A DNA stretch of 64,000 bases from Nemertoderma westbladi (lineage: Eukaryota; Animalia; Xenacoelomorpha): NCBI GenBank assembly GCA_032718475.1, contig JAUCBJ010001720.1:69533-133532 (forward strand). The letters run 5' to 3'. The translations under genes and the position numbers were made by a program. Positions 9,156 to 62,538 of the stretch are shown here, in pieces; position 1 is the stretch's first letter; every line of letters starts with the position of its first letter. The notes below the pieces were generated by a model. That model had not been told where the DNA came from. It saw only the letters and a program-made list of their open reading frames with translations, and did not search any database.

Positions 9156-11486
9156 TTAACTCACGTGGGTGGCATCTTCGTTTCTGATGTTGTCTGCAGG
9201 CATTGGTCGCTTTGGACACCGATCATCTACATGACTAGAACCGCCATCTTCTTTTGTAACGACAGTATCAACGTGACCCGTGACTAATTCTGAATCGACA
9301 TCAACAACCGGCATTGGTCGTCGTGGACATCTCTCGTTTGTCGGTTCGGTGAGTCTAACTAAATCAACGGTTGGGTATTTCGTACAGATATCAGTTAGTT
9401 TAACATCCTCGACAGATGTACATTGCTCTGTGGGTTGTTTTATAGCCACATTGCCTTCGTCTTTATCGACAACATCCAACTGGTCTATGTTGCTAAACGG
9501 CATTGGTCGTTTGGGGACTCTATCACCGGGTGGGGTGTAGGGCCGAAGTACTGATGTGTCGCCCAATGGGGTGCTGCACACAGCGGAGGAGTAATGTGTC
9601 GGATCCATTCGGGAATCGCTGTCGCTCCTACGGCCGCAAATAGCGGAAACATCGACTTTGTTTATAGTTCCCACGGAAGAGTCGAGCACCGCGGTAGTCG
9701 AGGTTAAAAGGGCTTCGTTAAAAAAGTCGCTGGATTGCTCGGCCTCAAAACCATCGAGTTCATCGTCGTTAAGTTCTGTTAGATCGATGGAATCTTCTAG
9801 GACCATCGACTCCTCTATAGCGGCAACGTCTTCATCGAGCATAGCGGCAAGGTTATCCCCCCCGTCGATGCTGCAATGAACTACAGTCGAGATGTTCTCA
9901 ACATCTTCGTCTAGAGGGTCTTCCGGGCGTTTACTGCATTCGGAAACCTCTACGACTGCGCTGACATCATCAACTGCGGTACTTTCTGACTTGTTATAGA
10001 GTTTAATATATTCATCCTTTGCCGATGCCATGCACTGTTCAACTACCACACCTATATCGATAGGCTCGATACCACTGCTCGAGGGATCGTCCTCCGTAAG
10101 CGTGTTATCCGCATCCACAACGGCGACATCCTCATCAACATTGGTGGAAACTACTTTTATTGCCCCGTCAACTATACTATTCATAACATCAGCAACCAAC
10201 GAATGTGGTTCGAATTCGCTTTCCAACTTACTGACATCCCAGGAGCCAGTAGGTGCAGCTGGAAGTTCGGTGCTTTCCGCTACTTTCTCTTCTACATCTT
10301 CGATGGGAGTTTCGTTGAGGGCAGGAGTTGAGCTTATGGTAGGAAATTCGTTATCGCAAACCACAATAGCCTGTTCATTCTCAACCAGCACGTCTATCAA
10401 GGATTTATTCCCGTTCGCTATGGTAATTAGAGCGGAAGGCACTCGGATATCGTCGTCAACTAGAACATGTAGTCTCATAGGTTCCTCGGTGTACTCCAGT
10501 ATTTTATTATTGGCTTCCTCAGTCCAACCGGCGGTCTCGTCTATAGGCGAGCAGTTCGCCAGTCGGACAGTCACTAACTGCGAGACAACATCGGCAAACT
10601 GACTGACAATCGGGAAAACCTTGGAGAGAGGAACCGTAGCCGAGTTGCCGTAATCTACGAAGTAAACATCGCAAGCGTCGGCGGTTGTCGATACAATCTC
10701 AGCGCGATACAACTGGCTATCCTCAGTAAACTCCGCGATGCAATGGGAACCTACATCGGGCGGCGACTCTAACGGGCAGTTCGTCGTCCTGTAATATTCC
10801 GTTAAACGCGTAGAAAACGCCTCAAAGTCGTCGTTATCAATTTGGAACACTAGATTATTTGGGAGTTCGCAGGAAATGAGAAACACATTGAGAACTTCTC
10901 CAACTTCCAACACGGGTTTAGCAACTCGAATCTCCGGCTCTTTAATTAATTTATCTAGTAAATTACAACCATCGATGTGGACGTTTATACCGATTCTATT
11001 GTCAACGATCTCAACTACATCGATATCAAAAGCGATATCGGCACACAACTGGGATACTAATTGCACTGCATCACTACGGAGGTCATTGCGACTATTTGCA
11101 CCAACGATATACGACTCAAATGATTGCACGTCCAACGTTGTAAAGTCTCTTCTAGCTATGAAGAGTTTGTCGTTGGGAAGAGTTTCGGAACTACCGTAAT
11201 CGACAAACTTTACTGTTGAGGAACCGTCTTTGGTTTCTGTGACGGTGGCTCTGTAGTGCTCGCCGTACTCTACAGAGAGAGCGACGCAGACAACAGCCTG
11301 TTCAACCTCCGGAAGTGGAACTAGGGTAGACATTCGCAGTCGGTCCATCAACGCAGTGAGTTCGTTTTCGGTTGACGTCGGTTGGAGGTACAACTGGTTC
11401 AATGAGTTCGCACTCAGTAAGTAGACGGAGAGACTCTCCCCGACGGTGATCGAGGGTGGTGTGTATGAATGGGATGGGATTGACAC
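9156..11486 (-). CDS. Giant multi-Tudor protein (Tudor/TDRD6/TDRD15-like), terminal exon: 2 extended Tudor domains plus acidic tail
   Basis: ACAG|GTG acceptor at 11486; CVALSVEYGEHYRA..FVDYGSSE and CIAEFTEDSQLYRA..FVDYGNSA Tudor cores; TAA stop at 9156. Confidence 0.92.
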   Translation of the reverse strand: MSIPSHSYTPPSITVGESLSVYLLSANSLNQLYLQPTSTENELTALMDRLRMSTLVPLPEVEQAVVCVALSVEYGEHYRATVTETKDGSSTVKFVDYGSSETLPNDKLFIARRDFTTLDVQSFESYIVGANSRNDLRSDAVQLVSQLCADIAFDIDVVEIVDNRIGINVHIDGCNLLDKLIKEPEIRVAKPVLEVGEVLNVFLISCELPNNLVFQIDNDDFEAFSTRLTEYYRTTNCPLESPPDVGSHCIAEFTEDSQLYRAEIVSTTADACDVYFVDYGNSATVPLSKVFPIVSQFADVVSQLVTVRLANCSPIDETAGWTEEANNKILEYTEEPMRLHVLVDDDIRVPSALITIANGNKSLIDVLVENEQAIVVCDNEFPTISSTPALNETPIEDVEEKVAESTELPAAPTGSWDVSKLESEFEPHSLVADVMNSIVDGAIKVVSTNVDEDVAVVDADNTLTEDDPSSSGIEPIDIGVVVEQCMASAKDEYIKLYNKSESTAVDDVSAVVEVSECSKRPEDPLDEDVENISTVVHCSIDGGDNLAAMLDEDVAAIEESMVLEDSIDLTELNDDELDGFEAEQSSDFFNEALLTSTTAVLDSSVGTINKVDVSAICGRRSDSDSRMDPTHYSSAVCSTPLGDTSVLRPYTPPGDRVPKRPMPFSNIDQLDVVDKDEGNVAIKQPTEQCTSVEDVKLTDICTKYPTVDLVRLTEPTNERCPRRPMPVVDVDSELVTGHVDTVVTKEDGGSSHVDDRCPKRPMPADNIRNEDATHVS

Positions 11487-11792
11487 CTGTAAATAAACAA
11501 CAACATCATTACGTCCGGAATGCGCTCATATTGAACGTGCCACATAATTAATACCCTGGCACAATATTTAATATAATTTAATTTCAGTAAATTATTTATG
11601 GGTCGCCCATAAAGAATGTCAGAGGTCATGGGGGGTGGGGGGGGGGGGGGGGGGGGGGGATGGGGGTTTTGGGCTAATTGAGGAGGCCTGATTTTTCGCT
11701 TTTTAATAATTACTCTTAACAAACGGGTCCGAATTTGGTCAGTTTGCTGAAATTAGATATTGGTTGGGACGAGACCTTTATTACTGTTCATA

Positions 11793-12012
11793 CGGCGCAG
11801 TGGCGAAGTTGGTAGAGCGTTGGACTTGGAATCTCTAGGTACCGAGTTCAATTCCACTTTCCGGTGAATTATTTTGCCAGTAAGATTGCGTAGTAAGCCA
11901 TCCAAAGGAGACAGTTCATGTGTTAGTAGACGCGGACCTTTGAGCGATTTCGCGCTTGCTTATTTATAAACTTGCTTCACTCGTGGGTTTACCCTTATCA
12001 GGGCACTAAAAG
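11793..12012 (+). mobile_element. tRNA-derived SINE-like element in a Tudor intron
   Basis: A-box TGGCGAAGTTGG and B-box-like GAGTTCAATTCC in a tRNA-like head with poor cloverleaf pairing, followed by a roughly 140-nt body ending GGGCACTAAAA. Confidence 0.55.
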
Positions 12013-12253
12013 TGCTTCTTTCTCAAAAATATAAGTTTGTCAATTTTTCTACTTACATTAACTTTTTGATATTCTAGAAAAATGTGAAAATTGATTTCAA
12101 ATAAAAGAAGTTTAATCTACTTAATCTCTGACAATTTTTCTAGAACTTCAAAAATTTTGATGTAGAGAAAACTTAAAAATAGTTTGTAGTTCTAATTTAA
12201 TTATAAAGTTACATCTTTTCAATACAACAGTAATTAGCCATCCGCATACAAAC

Positions 12254-15200
12254 CTTTCGTTTTAAAACACCTGCATGTTCCTCAACTAGTTTGACTGCGA
12301 CATCCCATTGAGATATTTTACCAACGTCATCTCCTTCGGGGATTACAGCCAAGGTCACGGATGTCGTACCGTCCGCATCACAATCCATCGGGGCAGCTTC
12401 TAGCAGGAGACCCGCCAACATACCCTCAAACTCCTCGCTCAACTCAGCGGACCAGCTCTCCCCGCCAGCAACCTCCACCCCAGCGAGGGAACAGTTGACG
12501 CAGAACCGCGGCGAAACCGCAAACTCCGCTAATAACGGACGTAACTGACTAACTGGCGTTGTCTGCTCGTTGCCGAAGTCTATAAATCGCACCACAACGG
12601 AGTCATCAACCGGCGCGCTAACAATCTCAGCACGATAGTAGGTGCCATCATCCTCGAACATTACAGCGCAAAGTTTGCCCGGCACTGGTACGACCACGCT
12701 GCCACTCACATGCTCAGAGTATTTGCTTGTCATTTGATCTTTTAATATATCGAGCGTCTGTAATTCATCATCTACAATCTGAATATAAAAGTCATCGGGG
12801 GAATTAACGTGAATAATCTGTGATTGACAGGTGGAGTTGAATTCACGTTTGGCGATTCCGTCATCGACTGTTATATCAACTTTACGAGCGAGATTTTCAT
12901 TGGCTAGAACTTCAGCCACATTCTCTCCTTTAGAGTTCACCATAGTTACACCGAGTTTTACGAGTCCCCATTCAGTGCGGCCGACTTCGTAAACTGTCGC
13001 CCTAAGTTCCTCCTCTCCTAAAACCTCCAACAAACGAGCTAAAATATCTTCCGACCATTCGGAGACCTCCTCGGGGGAATCAACTGGCTCAACGGCGTCA
13101 ACAAACTTATCGTCATCTTCATTGCCGGTGTCGTCTACAACGGCGGTGGTCCCGTCATCAGCAGTTAGAGTGTCGTCTTTAGTGGCGGTTGATTCATCAC
13201 CGACAGCATCTTTTACGTCCACAGTTTGCTCCCCATCTTTGGCTGGAGACAAATTCTCTTTAGCATCAACAAAGGCTGCCTCCTCTTCCGAGTCCACATT
13301 TTCACTAAACTTCGCTCCAATGGACTCCAATCCTAGAAGTTTTAAGCAGAATGCGTGTGGTGATGTCTGGGACAAATCGCCTTCTAAACTGCGAATATCT
13401 TTGAGCGGAACATGATCCGTGCTCCCATAGTCAACATGGAACACATCCATGGCACCATCGACTGGAGGTCGCAGTTTAACTCTATACCAACCTTCGTCAG
13501 CTGCGTACTTGGCCGCATATAATTTATCAGCCTCCACTTCGGATGGAGGAGACTTTTCGGCACAAGCGACTTCTACTTCAGCCATCATGTTGTCTATACG
13601 ATCCAGCGAATCCTTGAGTTGAACCCATATCTCCGATGGACTGTTGCAAAGACTAACCAAAACAGATACGGTATCAAATCGTTTGATATCTTCCACTTCT
13701 TTTTGGGGAGCTACTGTCACTTCATCCACAACCTCGGAAACAACAGGAACAATTTCCTCAACTACTTCATCCAAGGCAACTTCTGCGTCCAATTCATTCA
13801 ATAAGTGAAGTCCTGCCAAATTTATTAAATATGCCAAATCGAAACCATCAACTTCTATACTCACCTCGTAACAGTCCTGACTCTTTACATTGGTTTCATT
13901 GGGAATTTTGCCAACAATTCTACAACTCAGTTCTTTATCAGTAACAATTTTATCTAGAGTTTCATTCCAATCAAGGGCTTCAGGGACTTTCACCCCAATG
14001 AGTTTGCACATAACGGTTTGGGATGGCAGTGAGAATATACGATTACTTGCCGTGTACAACCGATCGCGAGGCAGTAACTCCGAGTTACCGTAGTCGAAAT
14101 AGCGAACAAGGACATCGCCCTTGGGAGAAACTTCCTCTACACTCGCTCTGTAATAAACATCATCTTCGGTAAATTGACCGATAGCAACAGTATTGACGGA
14201 GGGTTCGATTAGCTTCTCACTGTCAGCTGCGTAGATGGCCTCGATATCGTTAGTGTAGAGTAAGTTGAGGGGATCGGCAAGCGCGAGCAATTGGCAGAAG
14301 TAGGTATCCACGGACTCCTTGTGAGTGATATCTATGGAGACTGTCTCACCTGGTCTCAAAACAACACCTCTGAAACCGGGAGGACCCCAATCCGCTACTT
14401 TCTTACCAACCATAGATTCGGCAACATCTACACCATCTACAATCAGTCTTACTAAAGGTGTTTCTTTAGAATTGGTTACGTTGCAGATTAAATCAGCGTT
14501 CGCAATAATTTCGTTGAGTTCGTCAGTGGCCTCAGCGGACCACTCGTTATTTCCATTGGGGACGACACCTTCGAGGGCTACTCTCAATGTGAACCATGTA
14601 TCGACAGATAGTTCGGCAGGGAGAGGCTTTATTTTATTCAAATCCGAAACGGATTCCGAATTTCCGTAATCCCTAAAGCGAACCACAAGCTCTCCATCGT
14701 CATTGAGAGATTCGATAAAAGATCTGTACCACATTTGATCTTCTGAGAACTGACATAAACAATACTGACTACGGACATCCGCATTGCTAACAACAACACG
14801 TTCCAAATTAGCCTCATTACCCTTATTATCAACTATCCCATGCCCAAATTCCACAAGATATTCTCCTTCGCTGGGAATAGAAGAAACAACACCAAGTTTC
14901 CAGTTTTGGTTAACCATCGCGTAGACAGTGGAACCTACAGAATGTGCATCAAGCGATATGACGTCGGCTATCCCCTTGTCTTGAACGACACTAGCTAGTT
15001 GGTTGAGTTCATCTTCCTGGTCGGCGCGAAGCAAGTATATCTCGGATGGACTCTCGACGTGCGAAACAAAAACTTTAAAGGAATCTCCGAACGCCAGTGG
15101 TCTGTCGAAAGGATGATTACAAGGATTGAGGGCAGCAAGAGAGGCATTCACGCCAACACCACCCGCTTCCATAGTAACGGCTAATTGATCACCATGTCGA

Positions 15201-17502
15201 TATTTTACAGTCATTGTGACGTCATCAATACTCGTTAAATCCGTTAGGGAGTCTTTAACTGCTTCTAAACCAGCGTCAACTAAACCATATAGTTGGCACT
15301 CCAAGCCTTGAATAGGTAAGGACATAAATTGTTTATTTGTCTCTCTTAAGGCCTCAATAGTCGAGTTTTCTGAGTTACCATAATCTACAAAATTAACTGT
15401 TAGTTGATCAGTGTCCGTAATGATCCCTCGGTACCAGGCGCCATCTTCCGAGAATTTTGACAAACAGGGTTGACCTCGGACTGCGTTTGTGAGCAATGCG
15501 GGAGGGTTACTCCCACTGCAAACAGCCTCAATGACTTCGTACACTTTATTCAAGTCATCCTGATTCTTTGATAATTGCAGGAAGAAACTCTCAAGCGAGT
15601 TTATATGAGTTATAATACACGATTCCTTATCAGTAAACGTATTAAAGTCTATTTGTTTATAAGCAAATGGAACCGGTTCCTCTATATAGCGCTTGGCGTG
15701 GCTGGACTCTATCAATTTAGAAGCGACCATTTCTGAATCTTTCGCCAAAATCAAGTCGATATCAAAAACGCCTTCTTCGGACTTCGACAGGAACACGGCA
15801 TTCAGTTCATCGGAGAGAGTTAGTCGCTGGAACAATTTGTTACATTCAGCAGAATATTTGTCGTCTGTGTGAGTGACACCATGGAGTTTACATTCCACCC
15901 CAAAGAGCGGTTTCTTCATAAATTCATCCTTTGTAGCTCGGAGGTTGGCTATAGGCAACTCTTCGTCGTTGCCAAAATCTACAAATTTGACAAGAGCGGT
16001 TTTATTGGGATTGACTTTGAGGATGAGACCTCGATACCAAACCTTGTCGATCTGATACAGAGCCAGACACGGTTGGTCAGCGGCGCAGTTAATCACCGGC
16101 GTGGCGTTGCGCGCGAAAACGTGAATCTCGCCCATAAACCGCTCCAAGGCCGACCGATTGGACTTGATGTTGAGAGTAAATCGATCTGGGGTGATAGCCC
16201 AGGCCATATCAACAGGATGTCTAGACTCCGTATGGATGGAAATATCGGGGGCTTTGTACGAGGTGATAGTAAGGGGAGGAGGGGCGGGCGGTCCTTTAGG
16301 AGGCGAGGGCGGTCCGCCGAATCCGAATCCAGTCGACGGAGCGGAATCCTTCGAGGAGGAAGAAGCGGGTTTACCTGTCGTTGGACCGGAAGATCCGCCC
16401 CAATCGTCGCCGCTGAACCCGGACGAGCGATTACCCTGGTAACTGGAATCCCGCGGAGGTCTCGAAGATCCCCGAACCCACCGAATCCTTTTGAGTCACC
16501 GAATCCTTTTGAGTCACCGAAGCCAACTGATTTTTTCTCCCTGGTGTCCTCCGATTGTTGTCTACCGAATCCACCGCCGCTGCCTTCTCTCCTGTCTCTC
16601 GAGAACGACTTCCCTCCACCTGCATCTCGTCTTGAATCGCGCCCTGAATCTCGTCCGAAAGACTGGCCAGTTTCTCCCCTGGGTGGCGTTGCAGAATCTC
16701 GCCCCATAGATGGCGCTCCGGAATCTCTTCCCCTCGGAGGTGTCCGGGATTCCTTCGGACCCGGAGGTTCCCCGTACCTCGGAGGTCGCTGCTCCCCAGT
16801 CGACGCACCGAACCCTCCGTCCCGACTCCTACCGCCGGAGGGCGCCCCTCCGCTAGGCCCCTCTTGGCGCCCGGAATCCCGCGGCGGTCCAGTGGGGGGC
16901 GTAACGACCGGCTCCCGGTGTCCGTTCTGCTCGTCCACGGGAACCAGGGCCTCTTTGGGTGTCGGCGTCAGCGGTTTCTGCATTTCTTTAAAGATGTGCA
17001 GGTCTCTAGGTTGGTTGGTATCTATAAGGTCTATCACGTACTTAGTTTCTCTGGTTGAAGGATCGACTTCCTGCGAGGAGACACAAGCGATGAGGGTTTT
17101 ATCGCAAGTGAGTTCGTAGAATCGGTTGATATGATCGTCGGTCCATCCGCCATCCGGAATGGGAAGCTTCTCCAAGGAACATGGGAAGGCCAATGAGGGC
17201 AGTTTGAGGAACTCAACTTTAAGTTCCTTTAGGTGATGGAACTCTGCGATGCAAGAGTTCCCGTAGTCGACAAACTGGACGATGACGCCCTTGTCTGTTA
17301 GTTGGGCTACCCGAGCACGGTACCACTGGTCGTCCTCGGTAAACAAGGCCGCCACCGGTCGTCCCGGGATCAACGAACTCGGGAAGACCCCGTGGCCAGC
17401 CGCCCCGTAGTACGCCGCTAGTTTGGCTTGGAGAACGTCCAGTCGTTCCATGTGGTCGCTATGGATACAGTAGAAACAATCCGGGGTCTCTGTGTGGCAC
17501 AC
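12254..17502 (-). CDS. Giant multi-Tudor protein, 5.25-kb exon (7 extended Tudor domains, RG/FG-rich linker) with an apparent 1-nt frameshift at about 16470
   Basis: ATAG|GTG acceptor at 17502 and AAG|GTTTGT donor at 12254, both phase 0, but length 5249 is not a multiple of 3. Repeated (W/Y)YR...(F/Y).D(Y/F)GN cores. ORFs 16093-17502 and 12209-16207 join cleanly if one G is added to a G4 run. Confidence 0.88.
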
Positions 17503-17850: not shown

Positions 17851-18054
17851 CATAACATCTAAGAATTTTCCTAATGCAACTTCAACTAGGTTATAACTGT
17901 CTAACGGTGAAGGAACCTGTTGACGCACCGGCGGTGCGGTTGGCTGTGGTGAAGGGACGGGGGATGCGCGGTTACCGCTGATCTGTACACGCAACGGTGC
18001 CGACGCAAAGTCCGTGTTAATTACTGCACCGGTGGTTGTATCTTTTAGGGTCAC
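17851..18054 (-). CDS. Multi-Tudor gene exon
   Basis: TCAG|GTG acceptor, ATG|GTTAGT donor, 204 nt, phase 0/0; VTLKDTTTG...VALGKFLDVM joins VCHTETPDCFY of the next exon. Confidence 0.85.
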
Positions 18055-18183: not shown

Positions 18184-21100
18184 TCAATGGCGCCGACCCA
18201 CATACAAAACTCAACTAATTAATTAACTCAATGGTGGGAGGCCGACCCACATACAAAACTCAACTAATTAATTAACTCAATGGTGGGAGGCCGACCCACA
18301 TACAAAACTCAACTAATTAATTAACTCAATGGTGGGAGGCCGACCCACATACAAAACTCAACTAATTAATTAACTCAATGGTGGGAGGCCGACCCACATA
18401 CAAAACTCAACTAATTAATTAACTCAATGGAGGGAGGCCGACCCACATACAAAACTCAACTAATTAATTAACTCAATGGTGGGAGGCCGACCCACATACA
18501 AAACTCAACTAATTAATTAACTCAATGGTGGGAGGCCGACCCACATACAAAACTCAACTAATTAATTAACTCAATGGTGGGAGGCCGACCCACATACAAA
18601 ACTCAACTAATTAATTAACTCAATGGTGGGAGGCCAACCCACATACAAAACTCAACTAATTAATTAACTCAATGGTGGGAGGCCAACCCACATACAAAAC
18701 TCAACTAATTAATTAACTCAATGGTGGGAGGCCGACCCACATACAAAACTCAACTAATTAATTAACTCAATGGTGGGAGGCCAACCCACATACAAAACTC
18801 AACTAATTAATTAACTCAATGGTGGGAGGCCAACCCACATACAAAACTCAACTAATTAATTAACTCAATGGTGGGAGGCCAACCCACATACAAAACTCAA
18901 CTAATTAATTAACTCAATGGTGGGAGGCCAACCCACATACAAAACTCAACTAATTAATTAACTCAATGGTGGGAGGCCGACCCACATACAAAACTCAACT
19001 AATTAATTAACTCAATGGTGGGAAGCCGACCCACATACAAAACTCAACTAATTAATTAACTCAATGGTGGGAGGCCGACCCACATACAAAACTCAATTAA
19101 TTAATTAACTCAATGGTGGGAGGCCGACCCACATACAAAACTCAACTAATTAATTAACTCAATGGTGGGAGGCCAACCCACATACAAAACTCAACTAATT
19201 AATTAACTCAATGGTGGGAGGCCGACCCACATACAAAACTCAACTAATTAATTAACTCAATGGTGGGAGGCCAACCCACATACAAAACTCAACTAATTAA
19301 TTAACTCAATGGTGGGAGGCCGACCCACATACAAAACTCAACTAATTAATTAACTCAATGGTGGGAGGCCGACCCACATACAAAACTCAACTAATTAATT
19401 AACTCAATGGTGGGAGGCCGACCCACATACAAAACTCAACTAATTAATTAACTCAATGGTGGGAGGCCGACCCACATACAAAACTCAACTATAATTAATT
19501 AACTCAATGGTGGGAGGCCAACCCACATACAAAACTCAACTAATTAATTAACTCAATGGTGGGAGGCCGACCCACATACAAAACTCAACTAATTAATTAA
19601 CTCAATGGTGGGAGGCCAACCCACATACAAAACTCAACTAATTAATTAACTCAATGGTGGGAGGCCGACCCACATACAAAACTCAACTAATTAATTAACT
19701 CAATGGTGGGAGGCCAACCCACATACAAAACTCAACTAATTAATTAACTCAATGGTGGGAGGCCAACCCACATATAAAACTTAACTAATTAATTAACTCA
19801 ATGGTGGGAGGCCGACCCACATACAAAACTCAACTAATTAATTAACTCAATGGTGGGAGGCCGACCCACATACAAAACTCAACTAATTAATTAACTCAAT
19901 GGTGGGAGGCCGACCCACATACAAAACTCAACTAATTAATTAACTCAATGGTGGGAGGCCGACCCACATACAAAACTCAACTAATTAATTAACTCAATGG
20001 TGGGAGGCCAACCCACATACAAAACTCAACTAATTAATTAACTCAATGGTGGGAGGCCGACCCACATACAAAACTCAACTAATTAATTAACTCAATGGTG
20101 GGAGGCCGACCCACATACAAAACTCAACTAATTAATTAACTCAATGGTGGGAGGCCAACCCACATACAAAACTCAACTAATTAATTAACTCAATGGTGGG
20201 AGGCCAACCCACATACAAAACTCAACTAATTAATTAACTCAATGGTGGGAGGCCGACCCACATACAAAACTCAACTAATTAATTAACTCAATGGTGGGAG
20301 GCCAACCCACATACAAAACTCAACTAATTAATTAACTCAATGGTGGGAGGCCGACCCACATACAAAACTCAACTAATTAATTAACTCAATGGTGGGAGGC
20401 CGACCCACATACAAAACTCAACTAATTAATTAACTCAATGGTGGGAGGCCGACCCACATACAAAACTCAACTAATTAATTAACTCAATGGTGGGAGGCCG
20501 ACCCACATACAAAACTCAACTAATTAATTAACTCAATGGTGGGAGGCCGACCCACATACAAAACTCAACTAATTAATTAACTCAATGGTGGGAGGCCGAC
20601 CCACATACAAAACTCAACTAATTAATTAACTCAATGGTGGTAGGCCGACCCACATACAAAACTCAACTAATTAATTAACTCAATGGTGGGAGGCCGACCC
20701 ACATACAAAACTCAACTAATTAATTAACTCAATGGTGGGAGGCCGACCCACATACAAAACTCAACTAATTAATTAACTCAATGGTGGGAGGCCGACCCAC
20801 ATACAAAACTCAACTAATTAATTAACTCAATGGTGGGAGGCCGACCCACATACAAAACTCAACTAATTAATTAACTCAATGGTGGGAAATTAACTCAATG
20901 GTGGGAGGCCGACCCACATACAAAACTCAACTAATTAATTAACTCAATGGTGGGAGGCCGACCCACATACAAAACTCAACTAATTAATTAACTCAATGGT
21001 GGGAGGCCGACCCACATACAAAACTCAACTAATTAATTAACTCAATGGTGGGAGGCCGACCCACATACAAAACTCAACTAATTAATTAACTCAATGGTGG

Positions 21101-24100
21101 GAGGCCGACCCACATACAAAACTCAAATAATTAATTAACTCAATGGTGGGAGGCCGACCCACATACAAAACTCAACTAATTAATTAACTCAATGGTGGGA
21201 GGCCGACCCACATACAAAACTCAACTAATTAATTAACTCAATGGCGGGAGGCCGACCCACATACAAAACTCAACTAAATAATTAACTCAATGGTGGGAGG
21301 CCGACCCACATACAAAACTCAACTAATTAATTAACTCAATGGTGGGAGGCCGACCCACATGCACATACAAAACTCAACTAATTAATTAACTCAATGGTGG
21401 GAGGCCGACCCACATACAAAACTCAACTAATTAATTAACTCAATGGTGGGAGGCCGACCCACATACAAAACTCAACTAATTAATTAACTCAATGGTGGGA
21501 GGCCGACCCACATACAAAACTCAACTAATTAATTAACTCAATGGTGGGAGGCCGACCCACATACAAAACTCAACTAATTAATTAACTCAATGGTGGGAGG
21601 CCAACCCACATACAAAACTCAACTAATTAATTAACTCAATGGTGGGAGGCCGACCCACATACAAAACTCAACTAATTAATTAACTCAATGGTGGGAGGCC
21701 GACCCACATACAAAACTCAACTAATTAATTAACTCAATGGTGGGAGGCCGACCCACATACAAAACTCAACTAATTAATTAACTCAATGGTGGGAGGCCGA
21801 CCCACATACAAAACTCAACTAATTAATTAACTCAATGGTGGGAGGCCGACGCACATACAAAACTCAACTAATTAATTAACTCAATGGTGGGAGGCCGACC
21901 CACATACAAAACTCAACTAATTAATTAACTCAATGGTGGGAGGCCGACCCACATACAAAACTCAACTAATTAATTAACTCACTGGTGGGAGGCCGACCCA
22001 CATACAAAACTCAACTAATTAATTAACTCAATGGTGGGAGGCCGACCCACATACAAAACTCAACTAATTAATTAACTCAATGGTGGGAGGCCGACCCACA
22101 TACAAAACTCAACTAATTAATTAACTCAATGGTGGGAGGCCGACCCACATACAAAACTCAACTAATTAATTAACTCAATGGTGGGAGGCCGACCCACATA
22201 CAAAACTCAACTAATTAATTAACTCAATGGTGGGAGGCCGACCCACATACAAAACTCAACTAATTAATTAACTCAATGGTGGGAGGCCAACCCACATACA
22301 AAACTCAACTAATTAATTAACTCAATGGCGGGAGGCCGACCCACATACAAAACTCAACTAATTAATTAACTCAATGGTGGGAGGCCGACCCACATACAAA
22401 ACTCAACTAATTAATTAACTCAATGGTGGGAGGCCGACCCACATACAAAACTCAACTAATTAATTAACTCAATGGTGGAGGCCGACCCACATACAAAACT
22501 CAACTAATTAATTAACTCAATGGTGGGAGGCCGACCCACATACAAAACTCAACTAATTAATTAACTCAATGGTGGGAGGCCGACCCACATACAAAACTCA
22601 ACTAATTAATTAACTCAATGGTGGGAGGCCGACCCACATACAAAACTCAACTAATTAATTAACTCAATGGTGGGAGGCCAACCCACATACAAAACTCAAC
22701 TAATTAATTAACTCAATGGCGGGAGGCCGACCCACATACAAAACTCAACTAATTAATGAACTCAATGGTGGGAGGCCGACCCACATACAAAACTCAACTA
22801 ATTAATTAACTCAATGGCGGGAGGCCGACCCACATACAAAACTCAACTAATTAATTAACTCAATGGTGGGAGGCCGACCCACATACAAAACTCAACTAAG
22901 TAATTAACTCAATGGTGGGAGGCCGACCCACATACAAAACTCAACTAATTAATTAACTCAATGGTGGAGGCCGACCCACATACAAAACTCAACTAATTAA
23001 TTAACTCAATGGTGGGAGGCCGACCCACATACAAAACTCAACTAATTAATTAACTCAATGGTGGGAGGCCGACCCACATACAAAACTCAACTAATTAATT
23101 AACTCAATGGTGGGAGGCCGACCCACATACAAAACTCAACTAATTAATTAACTCAATGGTGGGAGGCCAACCCACATACAAAACTCAACTAATTAATTAA
23201 CTCAATGGCGGGAGGCCGACCCACATACAAAACTCAACTAATTAATGAACTCAATGGTGGGAGGCCGACCCACATACAAAACTCAACTAATTAATTAACT
23301 CAATGGTGGGAGGCCGACCCACATACAAAACTCAACTAATTAATTAACTCAATGGTGGGAGGCCGACCCACATACAAAACTCAACTAATTAATTAACTCA
23401 ATGGTGGGAGGCCGACCCACATACAAAACTCAACTAATTAATTAACTCAATGGTGGGAGGCCGACCCACATACAAAACTCAACTAATTAATTAACTCAAT
23501 GGTGGGAGGCCGACCCACATACAAAACTCAACTAATTAATTAACTCAATGGTGGGAGGCCGACCCACATACAAAACTCAACTAATTAATTAACTCAATGG
23601 TGGGAGGCCAACCCACATACAAAACTCAACTAATTAATTAACTCAATGGCGGGAGGCCGACCCACATACAAAACTCAACTAATTAATTAACTCAATGGTG
23701 GGAGGCCGACCCACATACAAAACTCAACTAATTAATTAACTCAATGGTGGGAGGCCGACCCACATACAAAACTCAACTAATTAATTAACTCAATGGTGGG
23801 AGGCCGACCCACATACAAAACTCAACTAATTAATTAACTCAATGGTGGGAGGCCGACCCACATACAAAACTCAACTAATTAATTAACTCAATGGTGGGAG
23901 GCCAACCCACATACAAAACTCAACTAATTAATTAACTCAATGGTGGGAGGCCGACCCACATACAAAACTCAACTAATTAATTAACTCAATGGTGGGAAAT
24001 TAACTCAATGGTGGGAGGCCGACCCACATACAAAACTCAACTAATTAATTAACTCAATGGTGGGAGGCCGACCCACATACAAAACTCAACTAATTAATTA

Positions 24101-27000: not shown

Positions 27001-27686
27001 TTCCCTAAAAGACCCCAACTATTCTGATGACTTACTACTGCAAGAGGCATTGGTAAATAGCGGATATCCATAATATGGAGTTTAGGTGCTAATTTATAGC
27101 TAAAGCGTGTTGGTGCTGAATTAATTGCAATACAACTGGAATTAATTGCAGATTGATTGGCATTGCATGCTGCAGCTGCATAAAAACACTACAATGCGAC
27201 AGGTGCCTAGAAAAAATTTGACAGGCCCGTGGGAAACAAAAACCTGCAAAACACCCGTTTCATATCAGTTCCGCTACACCAATAAAATATTAATTTTGCA
27301 TACCAATATTGTAGACAATGGTAAAAATAAAGCTGATTTAAAAAACCGGGTGGAATTGTGCTCGTTTCCTTGGTAACTGATTGTATTTTCGTTAAATTAT
27401 TGCATCAGAGATATGAAATAGGTATACCACGGCACGGCGTTAGTTCAAACAATACGCAATGACAAAACAAAGGCGCATCTGCCCCCGCCAAAATATTGTT
27501 AAAAAGATAGAAGAATAACTGAGTGACGATTTCTTAAACAAAATTTACAGAAAAAGTAACAAATAGATTGGAGCAATTTAAAAGTGCTGCCAATCATTTA
27601 ATATCAATTATTTCAGTTATTCTCGTGATAAAATAATGCATTGTAAAGAATTACAAAATAATAGCATTCTTGAAACAAAATATTAG

Positions 27687-30241: not shown

Positions 30242-30313
30242 CTGAAAGTAATCGGTATTATTAATAGTAATATATAATAAAAGTAATCACATACGATAAT
30301 GAAAGAAGATATA

Positions 30314-45481: not shown

Positions 45482-47947
45482 TTATGCTATTGTAGGTAAT
45501 ACACTAAACAGACAATGAAAAACAACTGTTATTTGCCTCAACGTGGTTCTGAAACTAACCATGATAGATGGATTAGTAACTGTGGTGTCATAATCTTTGA
45601 ATACGCTATCAGGTTCTTTATTGTCCCCTTTTTTACCGGTTTCCGTTTCAATTACAGGCCACGTACAGCCACTCGAATATGCTCTCCGTTGTAACGACAA
45701 TTTATGCGAAAGAATATCTTTCGATAACAATAATGAAATTGATACCGGTAACTGCATACACTGAGAAAAGCAGCTATTTTCGAAATTTATCAGTTTTGTT
45801 TGCTGTTCATTAACGAGTTTGACGTATAGCTCTTTCTTCTCATGCCATATTTCCCACTCAGGCCAGATACATTCACACTTGTCGGCTCTCATTATTAATT
45901 GTGAACATTTATCTTCAGTTAGATGTAGGAGGGGTGGCTTAACAAAATTCACAATATACTTCCTTTTAGGTATAGGCTCACCAAAGGGTTCCAGTGTATT
46001 AATTTTCTGGTCTGCGCCTGAAATAAGACCATCCAATTTCAATTTCACATTGCTATCTATATCTGGACAATCAACTTCAGTGATGAGTTTACTCATCCCT
46101 GCTGGTTCATGTTTAATGGATTTGCCATTTTGTGTTTGAGTATCTTTATTACCATTCGGCGTACTCTCTATGACCGACGACGCGCAATACTCAAGTTTAT
46201 TCGAATTCAATTGTGACTGGTAACACGATATTTGACTCCTATAAATATCCTTAGATTCCTTGGAAAATAGAGACAGGTTTCCCTCAAAATGCAAAGCGAT
46301 GGACTTATCCTTAAAGGTTAAAGACTTATTATTCTTCAATTGATGAACAGTTTCCATGTATTTAGTATGTGTTCTAACATAATGTATATTTTCCTTTGCA
46401 TTGTTGTGACTATGTGAGGTACTTTCGGAAGAGTGTGACACAATCTGCGCCCTCCAGTGTATATTTTCCTTTGCATTGTTGCGGCTATGTGAGGTACTTT
46501 CGGAAGAGTGTGACACAATCTGCGCCCTCCAGTGTATATTTTCCTTTGCATTGTTGCGGCTATGTGAGGTACTTTCGGAAGAGTGTGACACAATCTGCGC
46601 CCTCCAGTGTATATTTTCCTTTGCATTGTTGCGGCTATGTGAGGTACTTTCGGAAGAGTGTGACACAATCTGCGCCCTCCAGTGTATATTTTCCTTTGCA
46701 TTGTTGCGGCTATGTGAGGTACTTTCGGAAGAGTGTGACACAATCTGCGCCCTCCAGTGTATATTTTCCTTTGCATTGTTGCGGCTATGTGAGGTACTTT
46801 CGGAAGAGTGTGACACAATCTGCGCCCTCCAGTGTATATTTTCCTTTGCATTGTTGCGGCTATGTGAGGTACTTTCGGAAGAGTGTGACACAATCTGCGC
46901 CCTCCAGTTGTGGTTGGCATCCTCCACTTTTCCCTGGACAATATCATAGGGAATTCGCGCTAATCCCAGTTTCTGGACTTTAAATTTCAACTGGTAATTA
47001 GTCATCAGACACTGATAGCGATGTTTAGAATCCTTAGAAAACATAGAGTCGTTTCCTTCACTTTGCTCGGTGATGCACTTCGGGTTGAGTTGTGCAACGG
47101 CTCCCAGAAATCTACGCCGCGCCTCCACTGTATTAAAATATTTAGTTTTATTGAAAGTGGCATCGTTGTTGGAAATAACAGAATCAGCACTAAGTTTAAT
47201 TACTTTATTTTGATTGGTTGATTTGGGTTGGTCTGAAGTTAAGCTGGTACCATTTTGTGTCGATGTAACTTTTTGCTGAGATATAAGTTCTGGTTGCGAT
47301 GTTGTAACCTTTTGCTGTGATGTAACTGTTGGTTGCGATGTAACTTTTGGTTGCGATGTAACCTTTTGTTGCGATGTAACTTTTGGTTGCGATATTGTAA
47401 CCTTTTGCTGCGGTGTAACCTTTTGTTGCGATGTAACTTTTTGTTGCGATGTAACTTTTTGTTGCGGTGTAACGTTTTGTTGCGGTGTAACTTTTTGTTG
47501 CGGTGTAACGTTTTGTTGCGGTGTAACGTTTTGTTGCGATGTTGTAACCTTTTGCTGCGATGCAACTTTTGGTTGAGATGTAACTTTTTGCTGGGGTGTA
47601 ACGTTTTGTTGCGGTGTAAATTTTCGTTGCGCTGTAACTTTTTGCCGGGATGTAACTTTTTGTTGGGACGTTACCTTTTGTTGCGATTTCTGTTTTCTCT
47701 TATGGTTTTCTTGCTCTTCCAATTGCTTCAACTTTTTCGCAGTTTCCATTCCAACACCGGCCCTGTTATGTTTCACGGTTATATGTATCGGCAAAGAAAC
47801 AGAAGAGTTGTAGAGACCAATACCAGAACCAGAGTTATAACCCATTTTTGTTAACATTTGAAAGCCAATATTACTTTCTCCAATTTCTGTTTTAAGTCCA
47901 GTCTCTCGTAAAGTAGCTTCCATACTTTTCTTCTTTTTCTTTCCCAT
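45482..47947 (-). CDS. Nested G-patch domain protein (GPATCH11-like N-terminus) with 6-aa and 25-aa repeats, 821 aa
   Basis: Uninterrupted ORF from ATG. LRETGLKTEIGESNIGFQMLTKMGYNSGSGIG...PIHITVKHNRAGVG is a G-patch in a GPATCH11-like context. A possible donor (ATG|GTTAGT) lies near the 3' end. Confidence 0.75.
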   Translation of the reverse strand: MGKKKKKSMEATLRETGLKTEIGESNIGFQMLTKMGYNSGSGIGLYNSSVSLPIHITVKHNRAGVGMETAKKLKQLEEQENHKRKQKSQQKVTSQQKVTSRQKVTAQRKFTPQQNVTPQQKVTSQPKVASQQKVTTSQQNVTPQQNVTPQQKVTPQQNVTPQQKVTSQQKVTSQQKVTPQQKVTISQPKVTSQQKVTSQPKVTSQPTVTSQQKVTTSQPELISQQKVTSTQNGTSLTSDQPKSTNQNKVIKLSADSVISNNDATFNKTKYFNTVEARRRFLGAVAQLNPKCITEQSEGNDSMFSKDSKHRYQCLMTNYQLKFKVQKLGLARIPYDIVQGKVEDANHNWRAQIVSHSSESTSHSRNNAKENIHWRAQIVSHSSESTSHSRNNAKENIHWRAQIVSHSSESTSHSRNNAKENIHWRAQIVSHSSESTSHSRNNAKENIHWRAQIVSHSSESTSHSRNNAKENIHWRAQIVSHSSESTSHSRNNAKENIHWRAQIVSHSSESTSHSHNNAKENIHYVRTHTKYMETVHQLKNNKSLTFKDKSIALHFEGNLSLFSKESKDIYRSQISCYQSQLNSNKLEYCASSVIESTPNGNKDTQTQNGKSIKHEPAGMSKLITEVDCPDIDSNVKLKLDGLISGADQKINTLEPFGEPIPKRKYIVNFVKPPLLHLTEDKCSQLIMRADKCECIWPEWEIWHEKKELYVKLVNEQQTKLINFENSCFSQCMQLPVSISLLLSKDILSHKLSLQRRAYSSGCTWPVIETETGKKGDNKEPDSVFKDYDTTVTNPSIMVSFRTTLRQITVVFHCLFSVLPTIA
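46382..46907 (-). repeat. Coding 75-bp / 25-aa repeat (HWRAQIVSHSSESTSHSRNNAKENI), 7 copies
   Basis: CAATCTGCGC recurs every 75 bp from 46441 to 46891. Confidence 0.96.
47260..47690 (-). repeat. Coding 18-bp / 6-aa repeat (QQKVTS/QQNVTP), more than 20 copies
   Basis: Seen in both DNA and translation. Confidence 0.92.
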
Positions 47948-50534: not shown

Positions 50535-50544
50535 CGGTAACGGT

Positions 50545-52770: not shown

Positions 52771-53094
52771 ATGACGAGTAAACGACGGAATAACGGGCGG
52801 TCGAAGAAAGGCAGAGGTCACGTGAATCCGGTGCGGTGTACGAACTGCGCGCGGTGTGTCCCAAAGGATAAAGCGATAACCAAATTCGTAATTCGAAACA
52901 TAGTAGAGGCGGCGGCAGTACGAGACATTGCCGAGGCGAGTGTGTACGACACCTACGCGCTTCCCAAACTCTACCACAAGCTCATGTACTGCGTCAGCTG
53001 CGCCATCCATAGCAAGGTGGTTAGGAACAGATCGAGACAGATGCGCAAGGACAGAACACCTCCGCCAAGGTTTATACCACAGAGGCGGAATTAG
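52771..53094 (+). CDS. RPS26: 40S ribosomal protein S26 (eS26), intronless nested copy (probable retrogene)
   Basis: [51 protein letters not shown]...[23 protein letters not shown]...[10 protein letters not shown]. Intact ORF with the zinc-ligand Cys residues retained. Confidence 0.95.
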
Positions 53095-57250: not shown

Positions 57251-58378
57251 TCAAATGCTCATCCTGCACTTCCATTGTACCACGTACGGCCCAGATTCAT
57301 GATAGTCCTGCCTACTGATACACATATGTTTGAATGTAGACAGGGACGCCAGCAATGACCCCCCAATCCATGCCGAGTATTTCCTCTCTGGTGGTTCAAA
57401 TACCTCGACTTTGACGGTGGCCGGTGCGAGTGTGGCCATCTCTTTCCGAACGCGCTGGGCGAGTCCGGGAAATGCGGACGATCCACCTGCCATCACGATA
57501 TTCCCATAAAGTTCCCTCCTTATCTGATAATCACATTTCATGATAGAACCGTAAACCATTTCGTGTACTCCTTTTGCTTCCAATCCCATTGATTCCGGTT
57601 GAAAAAGTGTTTCAGTCGCCCTAAATCTCTCGTTTTCAATAACCATGAGTTGACCATCAGGTAACATATAACCTTTCTCTAGAGTTGTACTTGAAGCAGC
57701 TAAACAGAACTCTTGTTGGAAATCGAATGCGACATAGCAGAGCTTCTCTTTAACGTCTCTCACGATCTCGCTATCCACCGCGGTGAAGGAATAACCTCTC
57801 TCCGCGAGGAGTTTCATTAGGTGATTGGTTATTTCGCGACCCGCAACGTCCAGCCTATGGACACCATGCGTCAACGCGAATCCTTCATGGACAGGGACAC
57901 TATGGGTGACCCCGTAACCCGAGTCCAACACCACTCCACTGGTCCTACCAGACGCATACAAGGAAAGCACAGCCGGGTTGCCAAGGTACAGAGAATTAGC
58001 ATTGAAGGTCTCAAACATTATTTGGACGAGGTTTTCGCTATCCTCTTTAAGATTGAGAGGCGTTTCTGTTAGTAACACTGTCAACTTATCGGGCGATATT
58101 CTGAGCTCGTTGGTGAACGTGTGACGCCATATCGCTTCCATGTCGTCCCAGTTTGTAACGTAACCTCGCTTTACGGGGTACTTCAGGGTTAGGCTCTCGC
58201 GTCTCGTTTGAGCTTCGTGTCCGATGTAGGTGTCTCCTTGACCCATCCCGATTAGAACTCCCAAATGTCGAGGTTTCCCCAACATTGTGGGAAACACCGA
58301 TGAGGGGGCGTCGTCTCCAGAGAAACCAGCCTTTGTTAACCCTGACCCCGTATCTATGACAACAGAGGCAGCATTCAT
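57251..58378 (-). CDS. Intronless divergent actin-like protein (375 aa from ATG 58378), nested in the Tudor intron
   Basis: Colinear with actin: [66 protein letters not shown]. No stops, frameshifts or introns. Confidence 0.92.
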
Positions 58379-58432
58379 TGTGCCGATCAATTTGTAGCCG
58401 ATAATGACTAAAAATTTACGAATGACTAATTA

Positions 58433-60937: not shown

Positions 60938-61293
60938 AGATAGGGTAATGCGACGAGGGGTCTGATGTTGTTGGGATTGTTGTAATTGGTAGGCATCTTT
61001 ATTGGGAGAGAAAACGGGAGCCGTGACACTGAGGGACATATCTGCAGGGGGTAGAACCATAGCCAATCCGGGGGAGACACGTTGAGACACGCTCTGGATT
61101 GGTAGGGGGGCAGGGCGGTGAGGTTGGTGCCCGCTGTGGATTGGTTGGGGAGTGATGCGGGATGGGGGGTGCCCGATGTGGATTGGTTGAGGTGGACTGC
61201 GGGCACCGTGGTGTCCAATCTGGATTGGTTGAGCTGTCTGTACTGGGGTCATTAGTGGCGGAGCAACTGTTTGGCGTGGTGAAGGAGCTGGAA
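60938..61293 (-). CDS. Multi-Tudor gene exon (Pro/Gln/His-rich linker) preceding the 30-kb intron
   Basis: TTATTAG|TT acceptor (phase 1; alternative at 61287), TCT|GTGAGT donor (phase 0); RRITLS joins NLPTYNF of exon 30788. Confidence 0.75.
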
Positions 61294-61597: not shown

Positions 61598-61688
61598 CAT
61601 TATTCTTCACTTGGTCGTTAACTGTTATATTTTGTCCAGAATCGTAAAGAACTACGTCCGCGAAATTGTTACTACATATTTGTACCGT
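61598..61688 (-). CDS. Multi-Tudor gene exon
   Basis: CTACAG|ACG acceptor, G|GTGAGT donor, 91 nt (phase 0/1); TVQICSNNFADVVLYDSGQNITVNDQVKNN. Confidence 0.8.
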
Positions 61689-61965
61689 CTGTAGCAAAAA
61701 ATAATAAATAAGTTAAATACCTTGTCATAACGTAGTCGGCTCTTAGGAATTCCGAACAGAAAACTTAAACGACACCAGTAACTAGGACAAAATATAAATC
61801 AATTACATGTCAACATTTACAAAAAGCGAATAAGTATAAAATTATTACCGGAATACATTTTTTTGAATTATATGAAATATAAAATAAAATAATGCAATTT
61901 TTATATATTTTTAATTAATATTTGGAATTTTTATAAATAATATTATTATGAACAAATTCACCAAC

Positions 61966-62121
61966 CCTACAAAATTTAGAGCGGTGTAGTGTGAGATCTT
62001 TGAATAGAATAGTCTGCTCCGCGGTCCACCCAGGGTAGTGAGGGTCTATTGTCGCTTCGATGGCCTGTGCCGGAAGCTCCATCAACTTAGACACTGTCTG
62101 TTTTATATCTCGGAGAGGTAC
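61966..62121 (-). CDS. Multi-Tudor gene exon
   Basis: CGCAG|GTA acceptor, AGG|GTTGGT donor, 156 nt; VPLRDIK...LMELPAQAIEATI...GWTAEQTILFKDLT is a typical extended-Tudor C-terminal half. Confidence 0.87.
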
Positions 62122-62340
62122 CTGCGAATCGAAACAATATACCGGTAATAAAATGTTAAGTCTAAAACATATCTAAACGCCGATAATCATTGTTATTATT
62201 AATTATTTATTTGGGGTAATTTGTTACAAAATAATCATAAAAAACATTCACATTCATTACTAACTTGAGGTGTGATTAGTTAGTTAAAGGCAACCCAGCA
62301 GACATCGTATCATATCCCATGCAGAGAGTCAATCACATAC

Positions 62341-62538
62341 CTGTTCTGAGATACCGTAGTCGACGAAGCACAATAGACATCGGGAGGCAGTAGGGTAGGT
62401 TAAAGCTAGAGCTCGATACCACCTGGCGTCCTCTGGGCTCCTGGCGACGCAACATAGACCCGGGGTGATTCTATTGCTAGGTATGGCACCACCTACGTTA
62501 CCCAGTCGCTCATACTGCTGCTGTATGGTGGCCATTAT
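62341..62538 (-). CDS. Multi-Tudor gene, most 5' exon recognised in the window (Tudor core); gene start lies further upstream
   Basis: CCTAG|ATA acceptor, CAG|GTATGT donor; CCVARSPEDARWYRA...FVDYGISEQ. Confidence 0.9.

What the first reader, a model, noticed from the sequence alone, without database searches (positions are those of the whole stretch)
9156..62538. Giant multi-Tudor gene acting as host for a nested gene and ncRNA package
Seen: 10 exons with consistent phases give 9068 nt (about 3,022 aa after a 1-nt correction) and at least 11 extended Tudor domains over more than 53 kb. Its introns contain three intronless intact genes (G-patch protein, RPS26, divergent actin), three C/D snoRNA-like genes and 22 kb of satellite. 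Established: Tudor/TDRD6-type proteins bind methyl-arginine on PIWI proteins in germ granules; retrogenes are often germline-expressed. Inference: germline-open chromatin here may have recruited a co-expressed package. Three cargo types touch ribosome biology (rRNA methylation guides, eS26 paralog, G-patch activator of DHX15/Prp43-type helicases), suggesting a candidate germline ribosome-tuning module.
Basis: partly seen in the sequence, partly recalled or inferred. Interest (0 to 1): 0.8.

Follow-up and report, generated by a model that had tools for sequence, protein, structure and literature searches.

The report
Giant Tudor gene with unrelated passengers
An animal gene encoding at least 11 Tudor domains, a likely germ-granule scaffold, has swollen introns holding three single-exon genes, three predicted rRNA-methylation guide RNAs and 22 kb of satellite DNA; these are likely independent passengers of a well-known nesting pattern, not a coordinated ribosome-tuning module.

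Summary
The anatomy holds: ten exons, 9,068 nt, 11 extended Tudor domains, one frameshift, 22.2 kb of satellite, three nested ORFs and three C/D snoRNA-like genes. Corrections: the gene is 5'-incomplete, and one snoRNA lies outside the stated span. Domain order and linker position modestly favour one gene across the 30-kb intron; that splice is unproven.

The ribosome-module idea is weakly supported. The G-patch ORF is a truncated GPATCH11 derivative, and GPATCH11 is a nucleoplasmic splicing cofactor. RPS26 cannot be shown to be a paralog or retrocopy. The snoRNAs pair with universally conserved 28S motifs. In Drosophila, nested genes are common and less co-expressed with their hosts than ordinary neighbours are, although mammalian testis shows co-expression.

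One new lead: the G-patch ORF carries the best-scoring splice donor of the non-satellite part of the intron, in frame with the next Tudor exon, so a G-patch/ten-Tudor chimera is possible (about 10%).

The scan had not noted this locus or a similar one in my look-ups. Six other windows of this genome report satellite-filled introns.

The parts
62341..62538 (-). Tudor gene exon A (internal; gene continues 5' beyond the window); core of domain D1
61966..62121 (-). Tudor gene exon B
61598..61688 (-). Tudor gene exon C
60938..61293 (-). Tudor gene exon D, Pro/Gln-rich linker; phase-0 donor
57251..58378 (-). Nested single-exon divergent actin ORF, 375 aa, about 62% identical to conventional actin
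52771..53094 (+). Nested RPS26/eS26 ORF, 107 aa, uninterrupted coding sequence
45482..47947 (-). Nested 821-aa ORF: truncated GPATCH11-like G-patch segment, then in-frame tandem repeats; strong in-frame donor after 45560
31107..44510 (.). 21-bp satellite, about 619 copies, in the D-E intron
30609..30788 (-). Tudor gene exon E, phase-0 acceptor; start of domain D2
30315..30392 (-). C/D snoRNA-like gene s1, D box 79 nt upstream of the exon F acceptor
30062..30241 (-). Tudor gene exon F
28850..28972 (-). Tudor gene exon F2
27685..27762 (-). C/D snoRNA-like gene s2, close paralog of s1
18192..26997 (.). 49-bp satellite, about 179 copies, in the F2-G intron
17851..18054 (-). Tudor gene exon G
12254..17502 (-). 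Tudor gene exon H (5,249 nt): D3, Gly/Pro/Ser/Arg-rich linker with the frameshift near 16473, D4-D9
9156..11486 (-). Tudor gene exon I: D10, D11, acidic tail, stop; AATAAA 12 and 58 nt downstream
62646..62730 (-). C/D snoRNA-like gene s3, D box 115 nt upstream of the exon A acceptor

Best explanation
This is likely one large Tudor/TDRD6-like gene, predicted to encode a germ-granule scaffold that binds methyl-arginine, whose introns are swollen by satellite DNA and hold three unrelated single-exon ORFs and three snoRNA-like genes that likely arrived independently. Shown: exon-intron anatomy, 11 extended Tudor domains (8 with the full aromatic-cage-plus-Asn motif), family identity of each passenger, and guide complementarity to eukaryotic 28S rRNA. 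Inferred: the D-to-E splice; the frameshift being a homopolymer error; the protein binding dimethyl-arginine on PIWI or germ-plasm proteins; the snoRNAs being cut from host introns and so following host transcription; the three ORFs using their own promoters. The actin-like and G-patch ORFs are probably young, fast-evolving and testis-biased copies. RPS26 may simply be the ordinary housekeeping gene. No shared function is needed.
For: One gene: D donor and E acceptor are canonical and both phase 0. Against 61 of 71 homologs (those whose first domain starts within 40 aa), D1 scores above average with N-terminal domains (+5.2, +2.4, +3.7, +2.9 for ordinals 1-4; negative for 5-10), while D2 and D3 score -3.3 and -8.0 with ordinal 1. 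The collinear chain is best with D1 first (5316 against 4882-5218). A long Gly-rich linker follows the second domain in 0 of 12 homologs that have one; two psyllid proteins share the Pro-rich-after-1, Gly-rich-after-3 layout. snoRNA-like genes with shared ends lie on both sides of the big intron. Family: 71 homologs of 2,500-4,400 aa with 9-18 domains. Zebrafish tdrd6 genes also have one exon over 5 kb and N-terminal domains without a cage (PMC13495786, passages). Passengers: GPATCH11 is a splicing cofactor. In Drosophila nearly 10% of genes are in nested structures, nested pairs are less correlated than neighbours (median rho 0.019 against 0.174), and same-strand nested genes are 73% single-exon and 58% testis-highest (PMC3814207, search listing and passages; PMC5174743, abstract). 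The actin ORF stayed open in 1 of 1,000 neutral simulations to 37% divergence, so it is likely under selection.
Against: The overall domain order beats shuffles only weakly (21 of 300 reach it). Best-ordinal counts were diffuse, the domain tree is unresolved, and the homologs are related, so not independent. Exon D has the weakest donor (3.6) and acceptor (-0.1) of the set. Exon E begins 7 residues before a domain, as homolog N-termini do. In mouse and human, host/nested co-expression is prevalent in testis (10.1101/2023.05.02.539096, abstract and first third of Results). RPS26 carries four rare substitutions in its first 100 residues, matched or exceeded by 7 of 119 homologs, which would fit a diverged paralog. 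The strong donor in the G-patch ORF is unexplained.
Confidence: 0.6

Rival explanations
1. One host gene whose passengers are co-expressed with it in gonad because germline chromatin is permissive, but without any shared function.
For: Testis co-expression of host/nested pairs in mammals (10.1101/2023.05.02.539096, abstract). Same-strand nested genes are mostly testis-highest in Drosophila. Divergent testis actins arise repeatedly (PMC8291977 and PMC7038667, search listing). Intronic snoRNAs depend on host transcription (PMC13736004, abstract).
Against: Drosophila data show selection against concurrent expression. Two passengers are on the host strand, where their own 3' ends could truncate host transcripts (inference).
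Confidence: 0.13
2. Two neighbouring Tudor genes: exons A-D end the first, an unseen short first exon starts the second before exon E, and the three ORFs lie between genes and are not nested.
For: Reading through the D donor stops after 6 residues, with ATTAAA at +58 and AATAAA at +219. The D donor is the weakest of nine. E starts 7 residues before its domain. Phase agreement has a 1-in-3 chance.
Against: D2 and D3 do not resemble N-terminal domains, and D1 does. Linker position fits one gene. Similar snoRNA-like genes lie on both sides. No stand-out ATG micro-exon among the high-scoring donors (by inspection).
Confidence: 0.12
3. The G-patch ORF is an alternative first exon: it splices from 45560 across the 21-bp satellite into exon E, making a G-patch plus ten-Tudor protein that would bring a DHX15/Prp43-type helicase to germ granules.
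For: The donor after 45560 ranks 1 of 913 GT sites in 44600-60900 (score 9.4, with the identical exon G donor left out of the matrix). It is phase 0 in the ORF frame, 26 codons before the stop, and exon E is phase 0. Same strand as the host. The G-patch passes Pfam's cut-off (40.7 against 22 bits).
Against: The matrix rests on 8-9 donors. The 3' part of exon H holds four unused sites scoring 9.0 or more, and exon I has an 8.6 site three codons before its stop. The donor could splice to a local acceptor (45143 scores 7.6). None of 71 homologs lists a G-patch domain.
Confidence: 0.1
4. One reading: a selected, co-expressed germline ribosome-tuning module (methylation guides, eS26 paralog, helicase activator).
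For: RPS26 has rare residues at nearly invariant sites (K37T shared by 1 of 119; E90Q and A91M by 0 of 119). The s1/s2 guides predict a site two nucleotides 3' of the conserved U24 site. The snoRNAs would follow host expression.
Against: GPATCH11 is excluded from nucleoli, and the ribosome-assembly G-patch proteins named are NKRF, GPATCH4, GPATCH2 and PINX1. No evidence of a second RPS26. Systematic tests of Drosophila ribosomal-protein paralogs found no specialised function (PMC12704716, abstract). Nested pairs share function less often than neighbours do.
Confidence: 0.05

Closest known systems
Multi-extended-Tudor germline scaffolds (Drosophila Tudor, vertebrate TDRD6/TDRD15, invertebrate 'maternal protein tudor-like' proteins)
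   Same: Only extended Tudor domains plus low-complexity linkers; size near 3,000 aa; best structural-database matches are TDRD1 and Tudor; one exon over 5 kb and a cage-less N-terminal domain, as in zebrafish tdrd6.
   Different: Only 22-31% identity to any homolog; orthology unresolved; 44 kb of intron with 22 kb of satellite.
Host/nested gene pairs of Drosophila and mammals (PMC3814207, PMC5174743, 10.1101/2023.05.02.539096)
   Same: Short single-exon, fast-evolving genes inside the host's longest intron; same-strand ones lack introns.
   Different: Three protein genes in one intron is at the upper end (95th percentile is 3-4 nested genes per host in mouse and human); two of three lie on the host strand, against 29% in Drosophila.
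GPATCH11 / S. pombe Sap34
   Same: G-patch and flanking segment align to profile positions 53 to about 135 of a GPATCH11-like profile (84.7 bits for the whole hit); named hits are GPATCH11.
   Different: Lacks the first ~50 residues and the C-terminal DUF4187; about 700 aa of repeats and sequence with no recognised homolog follow.
Box C/D snoRNA U24/SNORD24 and yeast snR67
   Same: C, D', C' and D boxes with terminal stems in s1 and s2; the D guide pairs with the 28S motif that the Rfam SNORD24 consensus also pairs with; s3 fits either that site or a site near LSU position 2700.
   Different: Below Rfam cut-offs; in s1/s2 the D+5 rule points two nucleotides 3' of the U24 cytidine, and a second element pairs with the adjoining 9-10 nt.
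Non-canonical testis actin-related proteins (Arp53D, ACTL7B)
   Same: Single-exon, divergent, open actin frame.
   Different: No homology test to these was run; probably an independent origin (inference).

Membership tests
Multi-extended-Tudor scaffold (Tudor/TDRD6-like) | Tandem extended Tudor domains without other catalytic domains | tested here: met
   PF00567 x10 on separate ORFs plus one split domain; 11 in the joined model
Multi-extended-Tudor scaffold (Tudor/TDRD6-like) | Four aromatic cage residues plus Asn in most domains | tested here: met
   8 of 11 (D2-D7, D9, D11); D1, D8 and D10 altered (alignment to TDRD1; definition from PMC13495786; cage positions partly recalled)
TDRD6 or Drosophila Tudor ortholog | Domains group by position with those of the named family | tested here: inconclusive
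   Tree of 143 domains from the window and 11 of 71 homologs is unresolved; no vertebrate TDRD6 in the set
Multi-extended-Tudor scaffold (Tudor/TDRD6-like) | Germline expression and binding of dimethyl-arginine on PIWI proteins | not testable with these tools
   No expression or binding data
Host/nested gene pair | Host transcript spans the nested genes (D-to-E splice) | tested here: inconclusive
   Phase, domain order and linker evidence favour it; no transcript
GPATCH11 | G-patch with GPATCH11-type flanks | tested here: met
GPATCH11 | N-terminal acidic motif and C-terminal DUF4187 | tested here: not met
   DUF4187 in 7 of the 9 G-patch-bearing hits scanned; neither part found in six frames of the window
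Ribosome-biogenesis G-patch cofactor (PINX1, NKRF, GPATCH4) | Closest relatives belong to these families | tested here: not met
   Of 9 hits looked up, the three with a G-patch family name are GPATCH11
Box C/D methylation-guide snoRNA | C and D boxes, terminal stem, 10 or more base pairs to rRNA next to the D box | tested here: met
   11, 11 and 12 bp with one G-U; reached by 2, 3 and 0 of 150 shuffles; surrogate rRNA from other eukaryotes, chosen with a guide-derived pattern
SNORD24/U24 family | Rfam gathering score and D+5 on the conserved cytidine | tested here: not met
   21-26 bits against 41; s1/s2 point two nucleotides away, s3 is ambiguous
Retrogene | Intron-bearing parent elsewhere, poly(A) remnant or target-site duplication | tested here: inconclusive
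   No A-run longer than 7 within 600 nt after the three stops; parents not searchable
Germline ribosomal-protein paralog | A second, canonical RPS26 in the genome and gonad-biased expression | not testable with these tools
   No genome held

The most novel reading that the evidence does not exclude
A GPATCH11-derived copy that landed in the Tudor gene's intron has been captured as an alternative first exon. Splicing from 45560 to exon E yields a G-patch/ten-Tudor fusion that tethers a DHX15/Prp43-type RNA helicase to methylated PIWI complexes in germ granules, while the host's twin snoRNAs add a lineage-specific 28S methylation two nucleotides from the conserved U24 site.
Probability: 0.1. Interest if true: 0.65.

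Novelty: new member of a known kind. Interest (0 to 1): 0.3.

Why it matters
As it stands, this is a tidy example of known things: a Tudor-like germline gene, nested genes and intronic snoRNAs in a genome with satellite-inflated introns. It would matter more in two cases. If the G-patch exon splices into the Tudor exons, it links a DEAH helicase activator to the piRNA scaffold, a pairing that one literature search did not return. If the snoRNAs hosted only by a germline gene install a gonad-limited rRNA methylation, ribosome heterogeneity becomes testable at one nucleotide.

Tried and rejected
Expression: no RNA holder was listed for 9100-17600, so no reads were laid; this is no evidence either way. 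No genome is held, so paralogs, parent genes, the organism's own rRNA and synteny were out of reach.

Database look-ups: exact look-up of the RPS26, actin, G-patch and IFT43-region ORFs found 0 of 4. A search with exon E for longer proteins spanning its junction gave 2 candidates and none scored (weak evidence). The ESM Atlas gave one G-patch cluster at 0.76 for the whole ORF and nothing for residues 530-795. Rfam at gathering threshold found nothing.

Orthology: best-hit ordinals and ordinal profiles were diffuse, and the domain tree was unresolved.

Frameshift as a small intron: an 86-nt intron (16434-16349) would restore the frame, but its sites score 0.7 and 1.1. Amino-acid composition switches frame at the four-G run (Leu 1% upstream, 2% in the new frame, 16% in the old), so a one-base error or real indel there is preferred.

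G-patch ORF as a cassette exon between D and E: its acceptor scores -2.4, rank 304 of 793; rejected.

Satellites as copies of this gene's exon junctions, as earlier notes report for other genes: no shared 11-mer for any of three arrays.

D' elements as methylation guides: 13 and 61 of 150 shuffles do as well; not supported.

Neutral simulation is uninformative for RPS26 (603 of 1,000 stay open).

No structure or complex prediction was run. Supplements of the cited papers were not opened; full cross-species methylation tables there could show whether the s1/s2 target is already known.
Full report
Observation. I rebuilt the gene from the sequence. Ten minus-strand exons with GT-AG introns total 9,068 nt, exactly as reported. 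With X at one break near 16473 they read 3,022 aa without stops. Pfam finds 10 Tudor stretches on the separate ORFs. A profile rebuilt from 250 of 991 homolog domains gives 12 hits on the joined model, two being halves of one domain, so 11 domains. Eight of 11 have the four aromatic residues and Asn of the methyl-arginine cage; D1, D8 and D10 do not (definition from PMC13495786, passages). Exon A follows an acceptor and lacks the start of its domain, and no completing exon lies in the window, so the gene is longer than reported. The frameshift sits in a run of four G where linker composition changes frame. An 86-nt intron alternative has weak sites. Satellites total 22.2 kb. Six earlier, unreviewed notes describe similar giant intronic arrays elsewhere in this genome. 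Unlike those, the arrays here share no 11-mer with the host's exon junctions.

One gene or two. No transcript could be examined, so the evidence is indirect. For one gene: the D donor and E acceptor are both phase 0. Against 61 of 71 homologs, D1 resembles N-terminal domains and D2 and D3 do not, and the collinear chain is best with D1 first. A long Gly-rich linker never follows the second domain in the 12 homologs that have one, whereas the two-gene model would put it there. Similar snoRNA-like genes flank the intron. Tudor exons on the same strand either side of the satellite also make a chance assembly join unlikely (inference). Against: the overall order is matched by 21 of 300 shuffles, other ordinal tests and the tree were uninformative, exon D has the weakest splice scores, and reading through its donor gives a stop and polyadenylation-like signals. 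I put one gene at about 85-90%.

The host. A search with the long ORF returned 71 proteins of 2,500-4,400 aa with 9-18 Tudor domains, from sponges to amphioxus, at 22-31% identity, named Tudor-, TDRD1-, TDRD6- or TDRD15-like where named. Solved-structure matches are TDRD1 and Drosophila Tudor. TDRD6 binds symmetrically dimethylated PIWIL1 peptide (PMC10212539, passages). Germ-granule scaffolding is therefore likely but inferred. Size and domain number are ordinary for the family.

G-patch ORF. Its recognisable part is about 100 residues. The best non-repeat hits among 357 are mostly 150-350-aa proteins matching from about residue 45-55 onward. Of 9 looked up, the three with a G-patch family name are GPATCH11, and 7 of 9 G-patch-bearing hits scanned carry DUF4187. 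A profile from 69 of the 150 listed hits aligns from position 53 and finds neither the N-terminus nor DUF4187 in the window. Human GPATCH11 is nucleoplasmic, excluded from nucleoli and associated with spliceosomes (10.64898/2026.06.30.735655, passages). Its fission-yeast ortholog binds Prp43 in early spliceosomes (PMC13490427, abstract). So the helicase-activator idea is reasonable, but the pathway is splicing. Unexpectedly, the best donor of 913 GT sites in 44600-60900 lies in this ORF after 45560, in frame, 26 codons before the stop. Controls temper this: four unused sites of similar score in the 3' part of exon H and one near the exon I stop. The ORF may thus have an intron, either to a local exon or to exon E. 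None of the 71 Tudor homologs lists a G-patch, and one search for Tudor, G-patch, DHX15, piRNA and germ granule (at least 4 of 5 terms) returned no paper. From recall, ZGPAT combines a Tudor-like fold with a G-patch; not tested.

RPS26. It matches animal eS26 at 82-90% (119 of the 120 listed of 2,376 hits, the other a plant protein at 47%), with four rare substitutions in the first 100 residues, a load seen in 7 of 119 homologs. Nothing shows a second copy, so paralog and housekeeping gene are both open. No poly(A) remnant follows it.

Actin-like ORF. By my count from the printed alignment it has 230 of 368 identities to PDB 4EFH actin. The residues aligned to His73, Gln137 and Asp157 (numbering and roles recalled) are Arg, Pro and Tyr, suggesting altered nucleotide handling. 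An open frame at this divergence arose in 1 of 1,000 neutral point-mutation simulations, so it is probably a functional non-canonical actin, a recurrent class often testis-expressed (PMC8291977, PMC7038667, search listing).

snoRNAs. s1 and s2 are close paralogs with C, D', C' and D boxes; s3 shares the ends but has a different guide. I fetched rRNA with a guide-derived pattern; 7 of 10 loci scanned are eukaryotic LSU rRNA. The D guides form 11, 11 and 12 bp duplexes, reached by 2, 3 and 0 of 150 shuffles; the choice of targets biases the first two. s1/s2 pair with the motif also paired by the Rfam SNORD24 consensus. The U24 site is methylated in yeast, human, Arabidopsis and Dictyostelium (PMC8817022, table passage). 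By the D+5 rule s1/s2 point two nucleotides 3' of that cytidine, and a second element pairs with the adjoining 9-10 nt. s3 fits the U24 cytidine (10 bp) or LSU position 2702 of locus L056 (12 bp), which I equate from recall with yeast Um2724, guided by snR67 (PMC8053091, passages). s1 and s3 lie 79 and 115 nt before an acceptor, typical of intronic snoRNAs (recalled); s2 lies 9.6 kb away. snoRNAs in non-ribosomal hosts tend to be less abundant, more tissue-restricted and mobile between hosts (PMC13736004, abstract).

How it most likely works. The host is transcribed across more than 53 kb and spliced, releasing snoRNAs from three short-to-medium introns. The three ORFs are transcribed from their own promoters. 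Long introns collect short duplicate genes without selection for shared function: in Drosophila nested pairs are less co-expressed and less functionally alike than neighbours (PMC3814207, passages; PMC5174743, abstract), although mammalian testis shows co-expression (10.1101/2023.05.02.539096, abstract and part of Results). Tests of Drosophila ribosomal-protein paralogs found no specialised function (PMC12704716, abstract).

Verdict. The module interpretation rests on a G-patch assignment that fails and a paralog status that cannot be shown. Look-ups of earlier scan notes found no similar locus. Interest 0.3. The residual interest lies in the possible G-patch/Tudor chimera and the shifted snoRNA target, both cheap to test.

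Noticed in passing
window 2560-8603 (+): Convergent neighbour gene with IFT43 matches in its last exons (8331-8603, E 3.7e-17; 7120-7305, E 7.4e-5). Large upstream ORFs at 2458-3885 (with a 54-bp in-frame repeat) and 5360-5941 may be an unusually long N-terminal extension.
   Followed up: partly
window 45560 (-): Top-ranked in-frame splice donor near the end of the G-patch ORF; partner exon unknown.
   Followed up: partly
window 30315-30392 and 27685-27762 (-): Both snoRNA copies carry two antisense elements that together cover one contiguous 16-nt stretch of 28S rRNA; the predicted methylated uridine is two nucleotides from the conserved U24 site.
   Followed up: partly
window about 14600-15100 (-): Tudor domain D6 appears as two partial profile hits, with a degenerate Tudor-like core inserted before the intact one.
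   Followed up: no
window 9165 (-): A donor-like site (8.6) three codons before the Tudor stop; a short further 3' exon cannot be excluded.
   Followed up: no
window 46383-46908 and 47253-47687: 75-bp x7 and 18-bp x24 tandem repeats inside the G-patch ORF keep the frame open; a roughly 50-residue module appears duplicated either side of the 75-bp array (by eye).
   Followed up: no
window 48583-49832: Inverted arms of 71 nt, 90% complementary, 1.1 kb apart: a likely non-autonomous DNA transposon. Smaller inverted repeats at 56084-56307 and 55520-57034.
   Followed up: no
window 18192-26997, 31107-44510, 28142-28763: Each satellite unit contains donor-like sites on the host strand (scores 4.7-7.3, hundreds of copies in the two large arrays) but few acceptor-like sites.
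   Followed up: partly
window 6151-6573 (+): 140-aa ORF that resembles the tail of a LINE reverse-transcriptase protein (recalled resemblance; no Pfam hit), inside an intron of the IFT43-like gene.
   Followed up: no
window 63136-63262 (-): Weak Rfam H/ACA hit (snoF1_F2, E 1.2) overlapping a small inverted-repeat element; probably chance.
   Followed up: no
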